From Alphaproteobacteria bacterium (GTDB lineage Bacteria > Pseudomonadota > Alphaproteobacteria > Micropepsales > Micropepsaceae), in the NCBI GenBank assembly GCA_003246795.1, contig QKCS01000216.1, positions 1 through 27,061 on the forward strand: 27,061 nucleotides of DNA, written 5' to 3'. The notes under the pieces were generated by a model. The model was not told the origin of the DNA and searched no databases. It saw nothing but the letters and a program-made list of their open reading frames with translations. The position numbers and the translations under genes are program-made. This document shows, piece by piece, positions 1-8,663 of the stretch. Every line of letters begins with the position of its first letter. The first letter of the stretch is position 1.

Positions 1-644
1 AGAGAAATCGCGGCTTTGAGCTGAAACGGCCCGACGGCCAGGCGCGTCAGGGCCTGTACATGCCCGAGGCAGCCCAAAGTCCGGCCCAAATCCCGGGCAA
101 AGGCGCGCACGTAGGTCCCTTTGCCGCAGACCATTTCGAACACGCCGTGGCCGGCATCCGGCACGTCGACGAGCTCCAGCCGGTGGATATGAGCTTCTCG
201 CGCCTGGAGTTCGACGGTCTCGCCGTCGCGCGCCAAATCGTAAGCGCGCTCGCCGTCGACTTTGACAGCCGAAAACGCGGGCGGCGTTTGCATGATCCGA
301 CCCACGAACGCCGGAAGCGCGCGAACGATGTCGTCAACGGAAGGACGCGCCTCGTTCCGTCGAACAACGTCGCCTTCCGCATCGTCGGTCGCCGTTTCCG
401 CGCCCCAACCGATCGTGAAGCGATACGCCTTTCGCGCCTCGACGAGATACGGAACCGTCTTCGTCGCCTCGCCGAACGCAAGCGGCAGCACGCCGCTCGC
501 CAGCGGATCGAGCGTACCCGCATGTCCGGCTTTGTTCGCATTCAGCAACCGGCGCGCGATCGACAAGGCCTTCGTCGACGTCAAGCCGAGCGGCTTATCG
601 AGAACGAGCCAGCCGTGAATGGCCTCGCCCTTACGCCTCGCCAT
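1..644 (-). CDS. truB: tRNA pseudouridine(55) synthase TruB, 3' end truncated by the window edge
   Basis: Not in the ORF track because it has no stop in the window. Manual translation from ATG at 644 gives [23 protein letters not shown]...[17 protein letters not shown]...[14 protein letters not shown], with the catalytic GTLDP motif. The start overlaps the rbfA 3' end by 14 nt. Confidence 0.96.
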
Positions 645-1047
645 CGTCCGAATTCGTCTTCAGGTCCCGTGCCACCTTCTCGGACCGCAGCAGTTCGTCG
701 ATGTGGTGCGCCTCGTCGTAGGACTTGTCCTCGACGAAGGTCAGCGCCGGGGCATAGCGCAACTGAAGCGCCTGCCCCACTTGCGAGCGCAAATACGGCG
801 CGGAACGATTAAGCCCCTTCATCACCTCGTCGACATGCGCACCGGCGAGCGGAATTGCGAACACCGTGGCGTTCTTCAAATCCGGGCTGATGCGAACCTC
901 CGACACCGTCACTGACACGTTGGCAAGTGCCGGATCGTGCAGATCGCCGCGCATCAACACGCGTGCGAGGATATGGCGAATTTCCTCCGCCACGCGCAGC
1001 TGCCGCTGGCTGGGTCCGTGCTCCGATCGTGAAGGTCTGCGTGCCAT
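631..1047 (-). CDS. rbfA: 30S ribosome-binding factor RbfA
   Basis: C-terminal 138 aa of ORF 631..1326: [13 protein letters not shown]...[18 protein letters not shown]...[12 protein letters not shown]. Start taken as ATG 1047. Lies directly upstream of truB. Confidence 0.95.
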
Positions 1048-1057
1048 GAAGTGCGGG

Positions 1058-1086
1058 CTTCTATCGGCCTTTGCGCCGCAATCCAA
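1058..1086 (-). promoter_or_regulatory. Possible sigma70-type promoter for rbfA-truB
   Basis: Minus strand TTGGAT-N17-TAGAAG ends 10 nt before the rbfA ATG. Weak consensus match only. Confidence 0.25.
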
Positions 1087-1090
1087 GCGT

Positions 1091-1235
1091 TTATGACGGC
1101 TCGTAGGCGAACGCCGCGACCCACGGCGCGAGCGCGGGCAGGATCGGCGCCAAGAACGGCCTGTAATTCCGCCACTTTCCCCACGACACGACGTGGCTTC
1201 GTTATTGGCGCAGCGCCGACGCGCGGCGGCCCGCG
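1091..1235 (-). pseudogene. Probable decayed 3' remnant of a (TPR-)sulfotransferase-family gene
   Basis: A stop-bounded frame (1094-1201) reads ...WGKWRNYRPFLAPILPALAPWVAAFAYEPS*. This resembles the G(R/K)W..Y...LAP(V/I)LP.LAPW...FGY C-terminus I recall from proteobacterial sulfotransferase-domain proteins. Adjacent frames give ITKPRRVVGK and ARAAARRR, consistent with frameshifts. Recognised from memory, not searched. Confidence 0.5.
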
Positions 1236-1250
1236 CAACAAGAACCATCA

Positions 1251-2468
1251 TTACTCCAAAACGAACTCGGCCCGCGGCCGGATCAAACGTCCGCTCGCCC
1301 GCTGCTCGAACACGTGCGCGAGCCAACCGACCGACCGCCCCATGGCGAACAGCGCCAGCGCCGCGCCCGCCGGCAAGCCAAAGCGGCGCTCGATGGCCAA
1401 CAAAGCGAAATCGACATTGGGCTCGACACCAGCCATTGAACGGGCGGCATCCAGAACGCCTGACATCACCGCATCCGGCTCGACGACCGAAAACAGCTCG
1501 ACCGCTCGCGGATCGCCGTCGCGATAGAGGAAGTGACCGAAGCCCGGCAGCATCTCACCGTGCTGCAGCCGGTCCGCGACGGCGGTTTCCGCATCGCCCG
1601 CCCGCTCGATCCCGCTCAAGAACATCCGGACGCGATCGCTTGCCCCGCCATGAAGCGGGCCGCTCACAGCCGCAATCCCTGCCAGCACGCAATGCGTCAG
1701 CCGCGCGCCCGTCGACGCCACGACGCGCACGGCAAACGTCGATGCATTCAATTCGTGGTCCGCGAGCAAGACGAGCGCACGGCGGATCGCGTCGGCCGCC
1801 TTCGGCGTCTTCCATGCCCGCGCGACGGCTTCATGGATCGGCACGTCGATGGGCCGATTGATCCCGGTGATGGCCGCCACAACCGCTTGGACCAGCCGCG
1901 CCCCCGCGTCGAACGCCTGCGTGCTCGGTCTGCCGGCGGACGGCGGCTCGCGCGTCGTCAACAACGGCAGCAGCGTCGCCGCTCGATCCGGCGCACGCGG
2001 CGGCAGGAATCGGGTTGCAACCTCGGTCCAACCCGGCACGGCGCGCGGATCGAAGCGCGCCTCGGCGAATAGATCGGCGTCGCCGATGTCCCAAAGCAAC
2101 CGCGCCGCTTCTTCAAGCGTCGCGCGCCGCGAAAACGGAAGCGCCTCCTGCGCCCGATAGAAAATTCGATCGTCCTCGAAATGCGTGATCCGCGTTTTCA
2201 GGACAGGAAGGCCGAACTCGAGCGCCGTCGCCGCCGCCGCGCGCGGCCGGCGCATGCGCGCCTTGCGCGCGACAAGACCGTGAATGTCGGCGGCGACGTA
2301 CAAACTCGCCTTCGGCACTGTCGGATGCGGCGTCGAACGAACGAGACCGCGGCTGACATACGCGTAAAGCGTCGCCCGGCTGACCCCCAGCACCTTGGCC
2401 GCCGCGGCCGCGTCGAGCAGCGCATCCGGTCTGCGGAGCGCCTGCTTTCCGCCCTTTTGAGGCTTCAT
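1251..2468 (-). CDS. Citrate synthase-family protein with N-terminal MerR/excisionase-like helix-turn-helix
   Basis: N-terminus LLDAAAAAKVLGVSRATLYAYVSRGLVRS is HTH_17-like. It is followed by the citrate synthase motifs DHELNAST, GPLHGGA, GFGHFLY, DPR, PNVDF and LIRP. ATG 2468 preferred; TTG 2486 is the alternative start. Confidence 0.9.
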   Translation of the reverse strand: MKPQKGGKQALRRPDALLDAAAAAKVLGVSRATLYAYVSRGLVRSTPHPTVPKASLYVAADIHGLVARKARMRRPRAAAATALEFGLPVLKTRITHFEDDRIFYRAQEALPFSRRATLEEAARLLWDIGDADLFAEARFDPRAVPGWTEVATRFLPPRAPDRAATLLPLLTTREPPSAGRPSTQAFDAGARLVQAVVAAITGINRPIDVPIHEAVARAWKTPKAADAIRRALVLLADHELNASTFAVRVVASTGARLTHCVLAGIAAVSGPLHGGASDRVRMFLSGIERAGDAETAVADRLQHGEMLPGFGHFLYRDGDPRAVELFSVVEPDAVMSGVLDAARSMAGVEPNVDFALLAIERRFGLPAGAALALFAMGRSVGWLAHVFEQRASGRLIRPRAEFVLE

Positions 2469-2493
2469 ATTGATATATTGATTCAAGATTGAC
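2464..2493. promoter_or_regulatory. AT-rich candidate operator in the divergent promoter region
   Basis: ATTGAT (2469), ATTGAT (2477) and ATTGAC (2488) direct repeats, plus the palindrome TTGA-T-TCAA (2478-2486). 23 of 29 nt in 2464-2492 are A/T. Confidence 0.55.
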
Positions 2494-2517
2494 GACGATG
2501 CGCCACCATTCCACCTT
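2489..2517 (+). promoter_or_regulatory. Possible sigma70 promoter of the plus-strand citrate synthase paralog
   Basis: TTGACG-N17-CACCTT. The -35 box is good, the -10 box is weak. SD GAGGAG at 2534-2539. Confidence 0.3.
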
Positions 2518-2545
2518 TTCGACCGATTGGAAAGAGGAGATCGCC

Positions 2546-3622
2546 ATGCGTTCGGGCTTGGACAACGTCGTCGCCGCCGAAACCGTGTTGAGCCACGTCG
2601 ATGGCGAGGCCGGACGATTGATCATCCGCGGATCCGATCTCGAAGACCTGGCCGGCCATGCGACGTTCGAGGAAGCGACCGTGCTTCTGTGGGACGGCGT
2701 TGTCCCCGATGCGCCCACTGCGGAACTCGCGGCGCCCTTGGGGCACGCGCGCGCTCGGGCATTCGATCGTTTCCGGCCGCTGAAGAACGAAACACGTGGC
2801 TTGAGCGCCGTCGAAGCCATGCGCCTGTTGCTGTCGTCGATGCCGGACGGCAAACGCGCCGAAGAACCCGTTGCTCTGCTGGCGGCCGCCGGCGTCGCCG
2901 CCGCCTTTGCAACACGCGTCTCGCAAGGTCTCGAACCAATTGCGCCCAATCCGGCGATGTCACACGCGGCCGACGTCTTGCGTATGATCCGCGACAAGGC
3001 AGGCGACGCGGAAGAGGTTCGCGCCTTCGAAACCTATCTCGTCGCGGTCATCGACCACGGCTTGAACGCCTCGACTTTTACAGCGCGTGTCGTCGCTTCG
3101 ACGGCGGCAGGACTTCCCTCCGCGGTCGTGGCCGCGCTCTGCGCGCTCAAAGGCCCGCTGCATGGCGGGGCCCCCGGCCCGGTTCTCGACATGCTGGATG
3201 CCATCGGTACGCTCGGCAACGCCCGCGCCTGGCTGATCGACGCCATCAAGCGCGGCGAGCGGCTGATGGGCTTCGGCCATCGCGTCTATCGCGTGCGCGA
3301 TCCGCGCGCCAACGTGCTCAAAGTCGCCGTCGCAAAGCTGAAGGGCCGCTCGAACCGGATCGCCTTCGCCGAAGGCGTCGAAGCCGCCGCCCTGGAAGCC
3401 CTCAAGGAATTGAAGAGCGATCGTCGCCTGGACACCAACGTCGAGTTCTACACCGCGCTGTTGCTGGAAGCGCTCGACATTCCACGCGCAGCCTTCACGC
3501 CGGTCTTCACCCTCGCCCGCACGGCCGGCTGGATCGCACACGTAAGGGAGCAGGAAGCGAACGGCCGCCTGATCAGACCGCAATCGCGCTATGTCGGTTC
3601 GTGGCCGGTGCAGGCGGCCTGA
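2546..3622 (+). CDS. Citrate synthase / 2-methylcitrate synthase family protein with Glu at the catalytic Asp position
   Basis: MRSGLDNVVAAETVLSHVDGEAGRLIIRG, DHGLNASTF, GPLHGGA, GFGHRVY, DPRA, TNVEFY, LIRP. ATG 2546 has SD GAGGAG, so the ORF-track start at 2489 is probably too long. Confidence 0.92.
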   Translation: MRSGLDNVVAAETVLSHVDGEAGRLIIRGSDLEDLAGHATFEEATVLLWDGVVPDAPTAELAAPLGHARARAFDRFRPLKNETRGLSAVEAMRLLLSSMPDGKRAEEPVALLAAAGVAAAFATRVSQGLEPIAPNPAMSHAADVLRMIRDKAGDAEEVRAFETYLVAVIDHGLNASTFTARVVASTAAGLPSAVVAALCALKGPLHGGAPGPVLDMLDAIGTLGNARAWLIDAIKRGERLMGFGHRVYRVRDPRANVLKVAVAKLKGRSNRIAFAEGVEAAALEALKELKSDRRLDTNVEFYTALLLEALDIPRAAFTPVFTLARTAGWIAHVREQEANGRLIRPQSRYVGSWPVQAA

Positions 3623-3625
3623 CGG

Positions 3626-6328
3626 TCACAGCGTCCGCTTGACCGTCTCGACCTCGAAGCACTCGATCTGGTCGCCCTTTTGGATGTCCTGATAGTTCTC
3701 GAACGCCATGCCGCATTCCTGGCCGGCGACGACTTCCTTCACTTCATCCTTGAAGCGCTTCAGTGTCGAGAGCGTGCCCTCGTGGATCACGACGTTATCA
3801 CGCAGCAGACGCACTTTGTTGCCGCGCAAGACCTTGCCTTCCGTCACGCGGCAGCCGGCGACCTTGCCGACCTTCGTGATGTTGAAGACCTCCAGTATCT
3901 CTGCATAGCCCAGGAAGTTCTCGCGCAGCGTCGGGGACAAGAGGCCCGACATCGCCGCTCTGACGTCGTCGATGATGTTGTAGATGATCGAGTAGTAGCG
4001 GATTTCGACGCCGTCGCGTTTGGCGATGTCGCGAGCTTCCGCCGTCGCGCGCACGTTGAACGCAATGATCGGCGCGCCCGATGCGCGCGCCAGCAGCACG
4101 TCGCCTTGCGTCACGCCGCCGACGCCCGAGTGCAGCACCTGCACCTTGACCTCGTCGGTGCCGAGCAAGTTCAGCGCGTTCGCGATCGCCTCGACCGAAC
4201 CCTGCACGTCCGACTTGACGACGAGCGGCAATATCTTTGTTTCGCCCTGTTCCTTCTGCGCCAGAACCTGATCGAGCGACGCACGCGCGCTGGAACGCAC
4301 ACGCGCCTCTTTCTTCTTGCGGGCGCGGAAGTCGGCCACCTCGCGCGCGCGCGCGTCGTTCTCGACGACCGAAAAGTCGTCGCCCGCTTCCGGTGGCGCC
4401 GACAAGCCCAAAATCTCGACCGGTTCCGAAGGCCCCGCGCTCTGTACTTGCTCACCGCGTTCGTTGACGAGCGCGCGCACCCGGCCCCACTCGGCGCCGG
4501 CGACGACGATGTCGCCCACCTTCAACGTCCCGCGCTGCACGAGGACGGTTGCGACCGGACCGCGGCCCTTGTCCAGCTTCGCTTCGACGACAGCGCCCGA
4601 TGCCGGGCGGTCGGGATTGGCCTTGAGGTCGAGGATTTCCGACTGAAGCAGGATCGCCTCTTCGAGCTTGTCGAGGTTCGTCTTCTTCGTCGCCGAAACC
4701 TCGACGGCCTGCGTATCGCCGCCCATGGACTCGACCACGACTTCGTGGCTCAACAGCTCCGTCTTGACGCGATCGGGCGTCGCGTCGGGCTTGTCGATCT
4801 TGTTGATTGCCACGATCAGCGGCACCTTCGCCGCCTTCGCGTGATTGATGGCTTCGATCGTCTGCGGCATGACGCCGTCGTCCGCGGCAACGACCAGCAC
4901 GACGATGTCGGTGACCTTCGCGCCGCGTGCGCGCATTGCCGTGAACGCCGCGTGGCCGGGCGTGTCGAGGAACGTGATCTTCTTGCCCGACGGCAAGTTC
5001 ACCTGATAGGCGCCGATATGCTGCGTAATGCCGCCCGCTTCGCCCGCGACGACATCCGTCTCGCGCAGGGCATCGAGCAGCGAGGTCTTGCCGTGGTCGA
5101 CGTGGCCCATGATGGTCACGACCGGCGCACGCGGCAGCAACGACTCTTCCGCGTCCTCTTCGCCCGCGAGGCCTTCCAAAACGTCGGATTCGGCGACGCG
5201 TTTGACCGAGTGGCCGAACTCCTCGGCGATGAGCTGTGCGGTGTCCGCGTCGAGCGCGGTGTTGATCGTCACCATCTGCCCCTGCTTCATCAGGGTCTTG
5301 ATGATGTCGACCGCGCGCGTCGCCATGCGGTTCGCGAGATCCTGGACGGTGATCGCCTCGGGAATGACGACCTCGCGCACGATCTTCTGCGGCGCCTCGG
5401 CCTCTCTCACGCCGAGCTGCGCGCGCTGCGCGCGCTGAACATGGCGCTTATAGGCCGCGATCGAACGAACGCGCTCGGAATCGTCGAGGGCGGTCACGAC
5501 GCTGAGTTTGCCGGCTCTGCGATTGTCGTCACGGCGCGGTGCGGTAGGTGCTTTCGCCGGGGGCTTGCCTGGCGCCCCACCCGCCTTCCGGCGCGCACCG
5601 CGACCGTCATCGTCCTCCGCACCCATCGGCCGACGGGGCGGGAAGCCTGAGCCGGGCGTCGGCACAGATGTCCGGCCTGGCGCGGGACCGCGTGCGCCGG
5701 CAGGTCCGCTGCGACCCGGCGCACCGCCCGGACGCGGCCCGGCGCCGCCAGGACGCGCACCCGTGCGCGACGGCGACGCCGTCGTGCGCTCGTCGGGAGC
5801 ATCCAACCGGCGGCGTGCTTCGTCCTCAGACTTGCGTCGCGTTTCGTCCTCGACGGTGCGACGCGCGTCTTCCTCGGCTTTGCGCTTCGCAGCGAGTTCC
5901 CGCTCGCGCGAAAGACGCTCGTCCTCTTCGGCCCGGCGCTTTGCTTCTTCTTGGGCGCGGCGACGCTCTTCTTGCTCGGCAACGCGAGCGTCCTTCAGAG
6001 CCCGTGAGCGCGCTACCTTCTCTTCCTCGGTCAGCGTCCGCAGCACCATACCGCCCGATTTCGGCTGCACAGGCTGCGGCTTCGCCGCACGCCCCGAAGC
6101 GGTGGCAGGTGTTTTCTCTTTTGCCGCCTCGGCCTGCTTCGGCTCAGCCTTTGGCGCGGCGGCGCCCGGACGGACCGACGACCGCTTCTTCTCAACGACG
6201 ACAGCCTTCGAGCGACCATGACTGAACGCTTGGCGCACGACCCCCGTGTCCCGTTTCACGGACAACGTTTTCGGTCCGCCAGCAGCGTGCAACGTCTTGT
6301 CGCCGTCCGGGGTCTTCCTGTCAGCCAT
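3626..6328 (-). CDS. infB: Translation initiation factor IF-2
   Basis: G-domain motifs [17 protein letters not shown] and NKID; C-terminal GQECG. ATG 6328 is preceded by AAGGA. Confidence 0.98.
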
Positions 6329-6377
6329 GCGTATCCTTCGATCCTTCCAAACTCTGCACGTCGATTTGCATTCATGC

Positions 6378-6396
6378 GCCGAAACAAAAGTTCGGC
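6378..6396. other. Small hairpin in the ylxR-infB spacer
   Basis: Minus strand GCCGAA-CTTTTGT-TTCGGC, with no U-tract after it. Confidence 0.3.
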
Positions 6397-6405
6397 CCGC
6401 GGTCA

Positions 6406-7059
6406 TTAGGCCGCGCCCCACTCCGGCGGACACAAAACGCGGAAGCCGCCAAGGCGCTCAGCCTCGATCACAAACCGATCCGAGAGCGACCCTGCCGTGA
6501 GCGCAGCATGTACCACACTTTCCCGGCCGAATGCCAAGCCGATTTCGGCCTGAGCGAGGCATCCGACGACCGGAATCTGGCCGCGCCGCCGCGCAAGGCC
6601 GACAAGCTTCTCGCGGTCCGCGGAGCCTGAATCGCTTGCCTCCACGAGTGCGGCGATCCGTCCGCGTTTGTCCCGAAAAATCTCCTCAACCTGCGCGAAC
6701 CCGATAACGGCCTGACCCGCCCGCCGCGCGAGCCCAAGAAAATCAATGCACCGTTTGACCAGCAATCCTTCGACCTGCGCCGCAAGATCGGCCGGACATT
6801 TCACGGCAGCCTTCGCGGCCTTCGAAAACAGACCGCGCTCGCACGCCCGCGCGATCGTTTCGCGCTTCGCAGTGACCCACATCCCGCGGCCGGGAAGCTT
6901 CTGGGCGAGATCGGGCACGATCATGCCGTCCGGCCCCATCACAAAGCGCACCATGACGGCGGGAGGCAGGACCTCGCCCGTCGCGATGCAGCGCCGGTGT
7001 GTACCTTCGACGCCTTCGTCCACGTCGGATGTCGCGCCGCGACCGCGGCTTCGCGTCAC
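6406..7059 (-). CDS. ylxR: YlxR/DUF448 RNA-binding protein fused to an L7Ae-like domain
   Basis: RRCIATGEV...MVRFV...PDL...KLPGRGMWV (DUF448), then [14 protein letters not shown] (L7Ae/YlxQ-like). GTG 7059 overlaps the nusA stop (GTGA). Confidence 0.88.
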
Positions 7060-8663
7060 TCTGTGGTTTCCTCCGCCGCTTCTTCGGCCGCGACCTCTTC
7101 TTCCGCCGCCGGCTCGGGCGCTTCGATCCAACCGACGGCGACGCGCGCGGCCATGATGATCGCGTTTGCCTCGTCGGCCGTCATGCCGAAGTTCTCGAGC
7201 AACCCCGGCTGACGTTTGCGCTCGCCGTCGACGGTCTCGTTCCAGCCCAAGAGGTCGTCGGTCGCGCAGCCCGCAACATCCTCGACCGTCTTGACTTCGC
7301 CCTCGCCCAAGGCGACCGCCATCGCCGGCGTAATGCCCTCGATCCCCATGACGTCGTCGTCGACGCCCAGTTCGCGGCGCTTCTCGTCGTAGATCGCGTT
7401 TTGCCGTTCGAGAAATTCCTGGGCGCGGCGCTGAAGCTCGTTGCCTGTCTCTTCGCCGATACCCTGGATCTCCGCGAGTTCCTCCGGCGCGATGTAGGCG
7501 AGATCCTCGATCGAGCTGAAGTTCTCCGACGCAAGCAACTGCGCCAGCGTCTCGTCGACGTCGAGCGCGTTCATGAACAGCTCCGTGCGCTTGCGGAAGA
7601 GCTCCTGCCGGCGTTCGGATTCTTCAGCCTCCGTCAAAATGTCGATCTGCCAGCCGGTCAGTTGAGAGGCCAGACGGACGTTTTGTCCGCGCCGCCCAAT
7701 GGCAAGCGACAATTGGTCGTCGGGCACCACGACCTCGATGCGACGCGCATCTTCATCCAAGACGACCTTCGAAACCTCGGCTGGCGCCAGCGAGTTCACG
7801 ACGAAGTTCGCCGCATCGTACGACCACGGGATGATGTCGATCTTCTCGCCCTGCAGCTCCTGAACCACGGCCTGTACGCGACTGCCGCGCATGCCGACGC
7901 AGGCGCCGACGGGGTCGATCGACGAATCCTTCGACACCACGGCGATCTTGGCCCGAGAACCCGGATCGCGCGCCACCGACTTGATCTCGATGATGCCGTC
8001 GTAGATCTCCGGCACTTCCTGCGCGAACAGCTTCGCCATGAACTGCGGATGCGTCCGCGACAGGAAGATCTGCGGTCCGCGCGCCTCGCGCCGAACGTCG
8101 TAGATGTAGGCGCGAATCCGATCGCCCGTGCGAAACGTCTCACGCGGCAGCAATTCGTCGCGCCGCACGAAGGCTTCGCCGCGGCCCAAGTCGACGACCA
8201 CGTTGCCGTACTCGACGCGCTTCACCGTGCCGTGCACGACCTCGCCCACACGGTCGCGATATTCCTCGAACTGCTTCTCGCGCTCGGCGTCGCGCACCTT
8301 TTGGAAGATGACCTGCTTGGCGGCTTGCGCCGCGATGCGGCCGAAGTCGATCGGCGGCAGCGGCTCGGCGATCAAGTCGCCCACTTGAGCGGCCGGGTTC
8401 CGAATCTGCGCTTCCTCAAGCGTAATCTCCGTCGCCTCGTTTTCGATCTTCTCCACGACAAGACGAAGGCGGTGTAGCCGGGTCTCGCCCGTTTTCGGGT
8501 CGATCTCGGCCTTGATCTCGTTGTCTTGCCCGTAGCGCGACTTCGCCGCTTTTTGGATCGCCTCTTCCATCGCCGCGATCACGACCTGCTTGTCGATCGA
8601 CTTTTCCCGCGCGACCGCGTCGGCGATCTGCAGCAGTTCAAGCCTGTTCGCACTAACAGCCAT
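7056..8663 (-). CDS. nusA: Transcription termination/antitermination factor NusA
   Basis: [14 protein letters not shown]1 domain, KH motifs [20 protein letters not shown] and [15 protein letters not shown], and acidic C-terminal repeats. Confidence 0.98.

What the first reader, a model, noticed from the sequence alone, without database searches (positions are those of the whole stretch)
1251..3622. Divergent cassette: HTH-fused citrate synthase facing a stand-alone citrate synthase paralog
Seen: a 405-aa protein with a MerR/excisionase-type HTH (GVSRATLYAYVSRG) joined to a full citrate synthase fold lies head-to-head, 77 bp apart, with a 358-aa citrate-synthase-family gene. Established: divergent regulator/target layouts are typical of autoregulated metabolic units, and enzyme folds are often reused as ligand sensors. 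Inference: the fusion is an enzyme-derived transcription factor (a possible trigger enzyme) that reads oxaloacetate, acyl-CoA or citrate and controls its partner. I recall similar pairs being annotated only as 'citrate synthase family' in other bacteria and know of no characterised function, but I cannot verify novelty without a search.
Basis: partly seen in the sequence, partly recalled or inferred. Interest (0 to 1): 0.78.

Follow-up and report, generated by a model that had tools for sequence, protein, structure and literature searches.

The report
Citrate-synthase-fold gene regulator with operator
A protein annotated as a citrate synthase is most likely a DNA-binding switch that uses a citrate-synthase body as its metabolite sensor and controls the minor citrate synthase gene beside it, through a DNA site that is nearly unchanged across several bacterial phyla; I found no paper describing this family as a regulator.

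Summary
A 405-aa protein (1251-2468, minus strand) has a MerR/Xis-type winged helix-turn-helix, a flexible linker and a complete citrate synthase (CS) fold. It lies head to head, 77 bp apart, with a 358-aa CitA-type CS (2546-3622).

New here: a 23-bp site, TCAATCTTGAATCAATATATCAA (2470-2492), abuts the fusion's start codon. It or a close variant precedes the fusion gene in 78 of 81 loci from Alpha-, Beta- and Gammaproteobacteria and Acidobacteriota, whatever gene lies opposite: CitA-type CS, prpB-prpC-acnD, a CoA-transferase or a citrate transporter. It occurs once per genome, always at this locus.

In 197 good alphaproteobacterial genomes, 14 of 16 CitA-type CS genes sit head to head with a fusion.

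The fusion keeps the oxaloacetate/citrate-binding residues. It has lost basic residues that true CS keep around the CoA site.

Its Caulobacter counterpart is, by inference, CitC, which does not complement an E. coli gltA mutant.

Best reading: a local one-component transcription factor with a CS-fold sensor. This is comparative evidence only; DNA binding, ligand and sign are untested.

Earlier agents of this scan reported the same family in at least 24 other genomes. I found no paper describing it as a regulator.

The parts
1251..2468 (-). Fusion gene, 405 aa: winged HTH, linker and citrate-synthase-fold body (the regulator)
   Evidence: ORF and translation; Pfam Citrate_synt 1e-58 with a weak HTH_17 hit; AF2 mean pLDDT 89.6
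2253..2420 (-). Codons for residues 17-72: MerR/Xis/BldC-type winged helix-turn-helix (strand, two helices, two-strand wing, helix); recognition helix in SRATLYAYVSRG
   Evidence: AF2 secondary structure; Foldseek best hits BldC, SoxR-DNA and Xis, TM 0.76-0.81 by target, E about 0.04; L27 Y35 Y37 S39 R40 G41 invariant in 78 sequences
2214..2252 (-). Codons for residues 73-85: basic, Ala-rich linker (RKARMRRPRAAAATALEF), low model confidence
   Evidence: pLDDT below 50 for residues 78-84
1254..2213 (-). Codons for residues 86-405: complete citrate synthase fold. Oxaloacetate/citrate-site residues are kept (H238 N241 H273 H312 R321 D353 R397). Basic residues that true CS keep near the CoA site are replaced.
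   Evidence: Foldseek against M. tuberculosis CitA and PrpC, TM 0.69-0.76 over about 350 columns; column counts for 64 fusions against 50 enzymes
2470..2492 (-). Conserved operator TCAATCTTGAATCAATATATCAA (TCAA / TTGA / TCAA half-sites); it abuts the fusion's ATG
   Evidence: Present in 73 of 81 loci by the strict pattern and in 5 more as a TCAAGATTGA variant. Information content is near maximal inside the site and near zero outside it. It is the only exact hit in the window's own genome, and there is one hit per genome, at the fusion locus, in 5 genomes of 4.5-5.6 Mb.
2489..2517 (+). Predicted partner promoter (inference): -35 TTGACG (2489-2494, overlapping the operator's proximal half-site), 17-bp spacer, -10 CACCTT (2512-2517)
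   Evidence: Read. Across 73 loci the bases corresponding to -10 positions 2, 5 and 6 are the best conserved outside the operator (positions -21, -24, -25). The simple consensus scan did not report it.
2534..2539 (+). Shine-Dalgarno-like GAGGAG, 6 nt before the partner's ATG
   Evidence: Sequence
2546..3622 (+). Partner gene: CitA-type (PRK12350) citrate synthase, 358 aa, with Glu in place of the catalytic Asp (TNVEFY), as in B. subtilis CitA and M. tuberculosis CitA
   Evidence: alignment to 2c6x; Glu in 39 of 50 neighbouring enzymes
3626..6433 (-). infB (context): convergent with the partner, stop codons 3 bp apart
   Evidence: Pfam IF-2, GTP_EFTU and IF2_N
631..1047 (-). rbfA (context): 203 bp downstream of the fusion on the same strand
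   Evidence: Pfam RBFA on the ORF, Met at ORF residue 94

Best explanation
The 405-aa protein is a local one-component transcription factor. Its N-terminal MerR/Xis-type winged helix-turn-helix binds the 23-bp TCAA/TTGA/TCAA operator at 2470-2492. Its C-terminal body is a citrate synthase fold that serves as dimerisation module and ligand sensor. The operator abuts the regulator's own start codon, so occupancy should limit its own transcription. It also overlaps the predicted -35 (TTGACG) of the divergent promoter of the CitA-type citrate synthase gene, so occupancy controls that gene; the sign (repression or class-II-like activation) is unknown. The sensed ligand is most likely oxaloacetate or a citrate-type hydroxy-acid bound in the retained acid site. 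Ligand-driven closure of the two CS domains would reposition the HTH pair. Shown by computation: architecture, fold, residue pattern, operator conservation and uniqueness, and gene pairing. Inferred: DNA binding, ligand, allostery, promoter positions and sign.
For: (1) Architecture: a winged HTH (BldC, SoxR and Xis as nearest structures), a low-confidence linker and a full CS fold. (2) Operator: consensus tatcGTCAATCTTGAtt.AattaATCAAtaTa lies immediately upstream of the fusion gene in 78 of 81 loci from Alpha-, Beta- and Gammaproteobacteria and Acidobacteriota, with unconserved flanks. There is one exact copy in the window's genome and exactly one, at the fusion locus, in each of five other genomes; the reversed control pattern gave none. 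(3) The recognition-helix residues Y35 Y37 S39 R40 G41 are invariant in 78 sequences, which matches the invariance of the half-sites. (4) The site follows the fusion gene, not the neighbour. Divergent neighbours are CitA-type CS (49 of 80), prpB-prpC-acnD in 7 Lysobacteraceae (the position a prp regulator usually holds), a family-III CoA-transferase (12) and a CitMHS citrate transporter. (5) In 197 good alphaproteobacterial genomes the fusion occurs in 21. PRK12350-type CS occurs in 16, of which 14 are head to head with the fusion; the other two score at the cut-off. (6) Acid-site residues are kept in 59-64 of 64 fusions. Positions that are K/R in the neighbouring enzymes (269, 313, 316, 318, 346, 347) are mostly S/T, P, P, G, T/S, G in fusions. 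(7) A C. vibrioides protein with HTH_17 plus Citrate_synt lies 75 bp head to head with a 361-aa CS. This matches the adjacent citB/citC of Berge et al. (bioRxiv 10.1101/799742, also PMC7083601), where CitB but not CitC complemented E. coli gltA. (8) The fusions form one clade (support 94/98), separate from partners, PrpC and GltA-like enzymes.
Against: There is no experimental evidence of DNA binding or regulation for any member. The Pfam HTH hit in this protein is below the gathering score, and Foldseek E-values for the small domain are weak (about 0.04). The catalytic triad H273/H312/D353 is intact here and D353 is almost invariant (63 of 64); a pure sensor would not obviously need it, so residual catalysis is possible. 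My assignment of the lost basic residues to the CoA site rests on memory of pig and archaeal CS structures, not on a tool. The equation CitC = fusion is inferred from adjacency and domain content, not from an accession match. No sigma-70 consensus promoter was detected in the intergenic DNA. Related genomes are not independent, so the counts overstate the number of independent observations.
Confidence: 0.75

Rival explanations
1. Trigger enzyme: the fusion is still an active (methyl)citrate synthase or citryl-CoA-type enzyme that also binds DNA, so catalytic turnover rather than simple ligand binding sets its regulatory state, as in PutA or BirA.
For: The His-His-Asp triad is intact in this protein, and H273 and D353 are nearly invariant across the family. 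The full CS fold is modelled with high confidence.
Against: The basic residues that neighbouring true CS keep around the second catalytic His and before the NVD/E motif are systematically replaced. H312 is Asn, Lys or Gln in 5 of 64 members. Caulobacter CitC, the inferred ortholog, did not complement E. coli gltA. An earlier finding of this scan reports a branch that has lost the catalytic residues (e1-2469947; not checked here).
Confidence: 0.15
2. Partner-switching subunit: the CS body forms heterodimers with the neighbouring CitA-type enzyme, so the fusion tunes enzyme activity, or is titrated off DNA by its partner, rather than sensing a small molecule.
For: CS enzymes are obligate dimers with shared active sites (established knowledge). 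Fusion and partner are paralogs that are co-inherited; their trees agree for several pairs.
Against: 31 of 80 fusion loci have no CitA-type partner yet keep the same operator. Fusion and partner are only about 30-39% identical and form distinct clades. No complex prediction was run.
Confidence: 0.05
3. Ordinary enzyme with an incidental N-terminal extension, or an excisionase-like recombination factor; the conserved DNA is just a promoter.
For: The Pfam HTH hit is sub-threshold. HTH_17 also includes excisionases. The proximal half-site reads TTGACG on the partner strand, which is a good -35 element.
Against: 23 bp with dyad and direct half-sites are conserved across phyla far beyond promoter hexamers, irrespective of the neighbouring gene and once per genome. 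No integrase or mobile-element genes flank the locus. The HTH residues are invariant.
Confidence: 0.03

Closest known systems
Caulobacter crescentus CitB/CitC (CCNA_03757/03758; Berge et al. 2020, bioRxiv 10.1101/799742, also held as PMC7083601)
   Same: Adjacent CS paralogs. A C. vibrioides protein with HTH_17 plus Citrate_synt lies 75 bp head to head with a 361-aa CS. Caulobacter loci L031, L062, L066 and L071 carry the same operator. CitB is an active CS; CitC did not complement E. coli gltA.
   Different: The passages I retrieved from the paper treat CitC only as a putative citrate synthase and report no DNA binding or regulatory test. The identity of CitC with the fusion is my inference. 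The window's proteins are about 45% (fusion) and 57-59% (partner) identical to the Caulobacter ones.
Bacillus subtilis citA-citR (minor citrate synthase with a divergent LysR-type regulator; own knowledge)
   Same: The partner's best solved relative is B. subtilis CitA (2c6x, E 1.9e-73), with the same Asp-to-Glu change. It is a minor CS gene controlled from a divergent regulator gene.
   Different: The regulator here is not LysR-type. It is a MerR/Xis-type HTH fused to a CS fold.
MocR/GabR/PdxR regulators and trigger enzymes such as PutA, BirA and NadR (own knowledge)
   Same: A DNA-binding domain fused to a complete enzyme fold that serves as the ligand sensor; typically local regulators, often divergent from their target.
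   Different: Different HTH class (GntR winged helix in MocR) and different enzyme fold (aminotransferase, proline dehydrogenase, biotin ligase). I found no description of a CS-fold sensor.
MerR family (SoxR, CueR) and MerR-like BldC / excisionases
   Same: Winged-HTH topology; nearest structures are BldC, SoxR-DNA and Pukovnik Xis. Family member P0142 passes the Pfam MerR_1 cut-off. BldC reads direct repeats and MerR proteins read dyads; this operator has both.
   Different: No long coiled-coil dimerisation helix and no MerR effector domain; the CS body presumably provides dimerisation. The operator overlaps and lies upstream of the predicted -35 rather than filling a 19-20 bp spacer.
PrpR regulators of the 2-methylcitrate operon (sigma-54 Fis-type, GntR-type; PMC9765439, PMC12153269)
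   Same: In 7 Lysobacteraceae loci the fusion sits divergent from prpB-prpC-acnD, the position a prp regulator occupies.
   Different: Unrelated protein family. In the window the target is a CitA-type CS, not a prp operon.

Membership tests
Citrate synthase family (Pfam PF00285), fusion protein | Citrate synthase fold (large and small helical domains) | tested here: met
   Pfam 1e-58 over residues 86-399; Foldseek TM 0.69-0.76 to M. tuberculosis CitA, PrpC and T. thermophilus CS
Citrate synthase family (Pfam PF00285), fusion protein | Catalytic His-His-Asp and the oxaloacetate/citrate-binding His, Asn and Arg | tested here: met
   H238 N241 H273 H312 R321 D353 R397 are present here. They are kept in 59-64 of 64 fusions; H312 is N/K/Q in 5.
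Citrate synthase family (Pfam PF00285), fusion protein | Basic residues lining the CoA site (roles recalled from pig and archaeal CS structures) | tested here: not met
   Positions that are K/R in 23-44 of 50 neighbouring enzymes (269, 313, 316, 318, 346, 347) are mostly S/T, P, P, G, T/S, G in fusions. The window has S, F, R, G, A, G.
Citrate synthase family (Pfam PF00285), fusion protein | Citrate synthase activity | not testable with these tools
   Indirect only: Caulobacter CitC, the inferred ortholog, failed to complement E. coli gltA
NCBIfam equivalog or subfamily CS models, fusion protein | Score above a curated cut-off | tested here: not met
   Best hit NF009005 at 151.8 bits against a 332-bit cut-off; all 21 hits are below their cut-offs and cover only residues about 218-403
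CitA-type citrate synthase (NF009005 / PRK12350), partner protein | Score above the curated cut-off over the full length | tested here: met
   422.9 bits against 332, residues 1-356; best PDB relatives are B. subtilis CitA and M. tuberculosis CitA
MerR family transcription factors | N-terminal MerR-type winged HTH | tested here: inconclusive
   Pfam MerR 16.4 bits and HTH_17 22.2 bits, both below their cut-offs. Structural neighbours are SoxR, BldC and Xis at TM 0.76-0.81 but E about 0.04. A relative passes the MerR_1 cut-off.
MerR family transcription factors | Long antiparallel coiled-coil dimerisation helix followed by a C-terminal effector site | tested here: not met
   After the wing there is a 14-residue helix (59-72), then a low-confidence linker, then the CS body
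MerR family transcription factors | Operator dyad inside an over-long (19-20 bp) -35/-10 spacer | tested here: inconclusive
   One possible reading is TTGATA, 18 bp, GACGAT. The conserved flanking positions fit better with -35 TTGACG at the operator edge and a 17-bp spacer. No transcription start data are available.
One-component regulators with enzyme-derived sensor (functional class) | DNA-binding domain and sensor in one chain, with a cognate conserved site next to its own gene and target | tested here: met
   for the site; for the pairing. Binding itself is untested.

The most novel reading that the evidence does not exclude
A large, unrecognised family of transcription factors uses the open-to-closed domain movement of a citrate synthase fold, triggered by oxaloacetate or a citrate-type acid, as its allosteric switch. 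Cells would then have a direct sensor of the TCA-cycle entry point. It represses itself and, from a site overlapping the -35 region, switches a back-up citrate synthase. In other lineages it switches the methylcitrate operon, a CoA-transferase or a citrate transporter instead. Residue 272 (Leu against Arg/Lys) would retune the ligand.
Probability: 0.4. Interest if true: 0.8.

Novelty: new variant of a known kind. Interest (0 to 1): 0.72.

Why it matters
Thousands of genes named 'citrate synthase (family protein)' would be regulators rather than enzymes. That changes metabolic reconstructions and counts of citrate synthase paralogs. It would add a new sensor fold to bacterial one-component regulators, and a direct transcriptional read-out of oxaloacetate or citrate at the entry to the TCA cycle. 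It would also explain why minor CitA-type synthases in Proteobacteria come as gene pairs, and give a function to Caulobacter CitC. The near-invariant operator and recognition helix make the hypothesis easy to test, and the system could serve as a biosensor part.

Tried and rejected
Rfam scan of 1-7000 at E up to 1 gave no match, so a known riboswitch or leader RNA in the intergenic DNA is not supported.

The sigma-70 consensus scan of 900-3800 found no promoter in the 77-bp gap and no terminator count above the shuffled controls. The promoter assignment therefore rests on my reading of conserved flanking positions.

I first considered a MerR-style promoter with the operator filling an 18-bp spacer (TTGATA ... 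GACGAT). I prefer -35 TTGACG / -10 CACCTT, because positions -21, -24 and -25 are the best conserved bases outside the operator. Neither reading is proven.

A promoter for the fusion gene itself could not be assigned. The gene has no Shine-Dalgarno sequence here; it may be leaderless, but the distance from motif to start varies between loci.

An HMMER search of 1.8 billion representatives with residues 1-100 mainly returned the same family or fragments of it; no alternative architecture was identified. One 773-aa hit (P0144) gave only marginal, mutually inconsistent Pfam hits and was not pursued.

Literature searches for HTH/citrate-synthase fusions, 'citrate synthase family protein', CCNA_03758, SCO5831 and the Pfam names found no paper describing the family as a regulator. 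The held library is incomplete.

In the tree several added reference CS rows (L094, L095, L097, L098) had very long branches, probably because my crude longest-ORF extraction picked wrong frames. I use only the single fusion clade and ignore the placement of those rows.

An excisionase role was rejected, because there are no integrase or mobile-element neighbours. Recent duplication of the partner was rejected, because the clades are separate.

No RNA-seq or read mapping was attempted.
Full report
OBSERVATION. The minus-strand ORF 1251-2486 has its first ATG at 2468. It gives a 405-aa protein that contains GVSRATLYAYVSRG. Pfam places Citrate_synt on residues 86-399 (E 1e-58). It gives weak hits to HTH_17 (residues 17-43, 22.2 bits against a 27-bit cut-off) and to MerR. 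The plus-strand gene 2546-3622 encodes a 358-aa citrate synthase (CS): Pfam E 5.7e-99, NCBIfam NF009005/PRK12350 at 422.9 bits against a 332-bit cut-off. The start codons are 77 bp apart. The description is correct in every particular.

THE PARTNER. Its best solved relatives are B. subtilis CitA (2c6x, E 1.9e-73) and M. tuberculosis CitA. Like them it has Glu in place of the catalytic Asp (TNVEFY). It is therefore a CitA-type minor CS. In a sample of alphaproteobacterial genomes, most carry a longer GltA-type CS elsewhere in addition. The window's own genome is a 64.5%-complete bin. Only these two CS-family genes were found in it, which does not show that gltA is absent.

THE FUSION PROTEIN. 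An AF2 model built on 78 homologs has mean pLDDT 89.6.
- Residues 17-72 form a strand, two helices, a two-strand wing and a helix.
- Residues 73-85 are a low-confidence linker.
- The rest is a complete CS fold. Its best PDB matches are M. tuberculosis CitA and several PrpC and CS structures (TM 0.69-0.76 by target over about 350 columns).

Modelled alone, the N-domain is closest to BldC, SoxR bound to DNA and a mycobacteriophage Xis (TM 0.76-0.81 by target, rmsd about 1.8 A). The E-values are weak (about 0.04), as expected for 52 residues. One family member passes the Pfam MerR_1 cut-off. There is no MerR-type coiled coil, so the CS body presumably supplies the dimer (CS enzymes are dimers; established knowledge).

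RESIDUES. I compared 64 fusions with 50 neighbouring enzymes.
- Kept in fusions: the residues that bind oxaloacetate or citrate in CS, and the catalytic triad. These are H238, N241, H273, H312 (59 of 64), R321, D353 (63 of 64) and R397.
- Lost in fusions: positions that are Lys or Arg in the enzymes (269, 313, 316, 318, 346, 347). In fusions they are mostly Ser/Thr, Pro, Pro, Gly, Thr/Ser and Gly.

From my memory of pig and archaeal CS structures, these basic residues surround the CoA phosphates. That assignment is not a tool result. The pattern suggests an acid-binding pocket that no longer holds acyl-CoA in the usual way. None of the 21 NCBIfam CS models reaches its cut-off on the fusion.

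THE OPERATOR. I aligned the DNA upstream of the fusion gene in the window and 80 related loci. A conserved element appeared: tatcGTCAATCTTGAtt.AattaATCAAtaTa.
- The strict core TCAA[TC][ACT]TT[GA]A is present in 73 of 81 loci.
- Five more loci have TCAAGATTGA-N8-ATCAA with one or two mismatches.
- Information content is near maximal inside the site and near zero in the flanks.
- The loci come from Alpha-, Beta- and Gammaproteobacteria and from Acidobacteriota.

In the window the site is 2470-2492 and abuts the fusion's ATG. The pattern TCAAYNTTRAN8ATCAA has one exact hit in the window's genome. It has exactly one hit, at the fusion locus, in each of five other genomes of 4.5-5.6 Mb; the reversed control pattern gave none. 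By base composition I estimate about 0.01 chance hits per genome. The recognition-helix residues Y35, Y37, S39, R40 and G41 are invariant in 78 sequences, which parallels the invariant half-sites. A known RNA element is not supported.

GENE NEIGHBOURHOODS. Of the 80 best loci from one genome per species:
- 49 have a head-to-head CitA-type CS.
- 7 Lysobacteraceae have divergent prpB (PEP_mutase family), prpC and acnD, so the fusion sits where a prp regulator normally sits.
- 12 (Burkholderiales, Azospirillaceae and relatives, one Terriglobales) have a divergent family-III CoA-transferase.
- One Bradyrhizobium has a CitMHS citrate transporter.
- The four closest bins other than L003 have a beta-lactamase-fold gene.

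The operator is present in all these classes, so it belongs to the fusion gene rather than to any one target.

In an even sample of 197 good alphaproteobacterial genomes, 21 carry the fusion, one copy each. Sixteen of 201 genomes have a PRK12350-type CS above the cut-off. Fourteen of these, including the window, are adjacent and divergent to the fusion. The other two score at the threshold, 332-334 bits.

PROMOTER GEOMETRY (inference). On the partner strand the proximal half-site reads TTGACG (2489-2494), a good -35 element. Seventeen bases later lies CACCTT (2512-2517). Across loci, the positions corresponding to -10 bases 2, 5 and 6 are the best conserved outside the operator. The partner's start codon lies a median of 58 nt from the operator edge. 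GAGGAG precedes the ATG by 6 nt. On this reading the operator covers about -31 to -53 of the partner promoter and also the start of the fusion gene. That fits autorepression combined with either repression or class-II-like activation of the partner. The sign cannot be decided from sequence.

LINK TO EXPERIMENT. Berge et al. (bioRxiv 10.1101/799742, also PMC7083601) report that C. crescentus has adjacent citB and citC. CitB complements an E. coli gltA mutant and CitC does not. A citBC double deletion is viable but could not be combined with loss of citA. A protein labelled C. vibrioides has HTH_17 plus Citrate_synt and lies 75 bp head to head with a 361-aa CS. I therefore infer that CitC is the fusion ortholog. 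The passages I retrieved from the paper treat CitC only as a putative synthase.

EVOLUTION. In a maximum-likelihood tree the 33 sampled fusion bodies form one clade (94/98). It is separate from partners, PrpC and GltA-like enzymes, and several fusion and partner subtrees agree. This suggests one old origin and co-inheritance. Some added reference rows were unreliable; see the section on what was tried and rejected.

VERDICT. The protein works like a one-component regulator with an enzyme-derived sensor, as MocR/GabR regulators and trigger enzymes do. It has the CS fold, but it failed the test for the basic residues near the CoA site and is below every curated CS model cut-off. It is not a canonical MerR protein.

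I found no paper that describes the family as a regulator. Public names are 'citrate synthase (family protein)'. Earlier agents of this scan reached the same reading on at least 24 other genomes. I treat those as leads; the operator, pairing and Caulobacter points were re-derived here. DNA binding, ligand and sign remain to be shown at the bench.

Noticed in passing
window 631-8663; L003:1-7351: The CS pair is inserted inside the conserved rimP-nusA-ylxR-infB-rbfA-truB cluster, between infB and rbfA. The partner and infB converge with stop codons only 3 bp apart (3622 and 3626). rbfA follows the fusion gene after 203 bp on the same strand. The relative L003 (70% identical fusion) has the same infB-[pair]-rbfA-truB order; two other genomes of the same family (G008, G166) do not.
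   Followed up: partly
L029, L055, L060, L067, L074, L078, L079 (about 2700-6200 in each): In Lysobacteraceae (Luteimonas, Pseudoxanthomonas) the fusion is divergent from prpB-prpC-acnD and carries the same operator. This looks like a non-orthologous replacement of the Fis-type PrpR described for Xanthomonas.
   Followed up: partly
fusion residue 272 (window codon 1653-1655, minus strand): The residue before the first catalytic His (GP-L-HGG in true CS) is Leu in 25 of 39 fusions next to a CitA-type CS. It is Arg in all 18 fusions next to prp operons or CoA-transferases, and Lys/Arg next to the beta-lactamase-fold gene. It may determine ligand specificity, but the comparison is confounded by relatedness.
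   Followed up: partly
L005, L007: Two bins titled 'uncultured Flavobacteriaceae' carry fusions 59-65% identical to the window's and branch inside the alphaproteobacterial clade. The bins are probably mislabelled or contaminated.
   Followed up: no
L040 (Terriglobales, Acidobacteriota): Its fusion nests among Burkholderiales sequences (Xylophilus, Cupriavidus) and shares their CoA-transferase neighbour. This suggests horizontal transfer of regulator and target together.
   Followed up: no
L004-L007, about 3600-4950: After L003, the closest relatives of the window's fusion lack a CS partner and face a beta-lactamase-fold (PF00144) gene. In these the second catalytic His is Asn or Lys. The operator variant is GTCAATCTTAAATCAACGTGTTAAC.
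   Followed up: no
G000 (whole bin): Only two CS-family genes were found in the window's genome and no GltA-type CS. The bin is 64.5% complete, so this may be an assembly gap.
   Followed up: no
L023, L046, L058 and others (CoA-transferase neighbour): The divergent family-III CoA-transferase is 464-523 aa, and Pfam covers only its C-terminal half (from about residue 206). The first 200 or so residues are unassigned.
   Followed up: no
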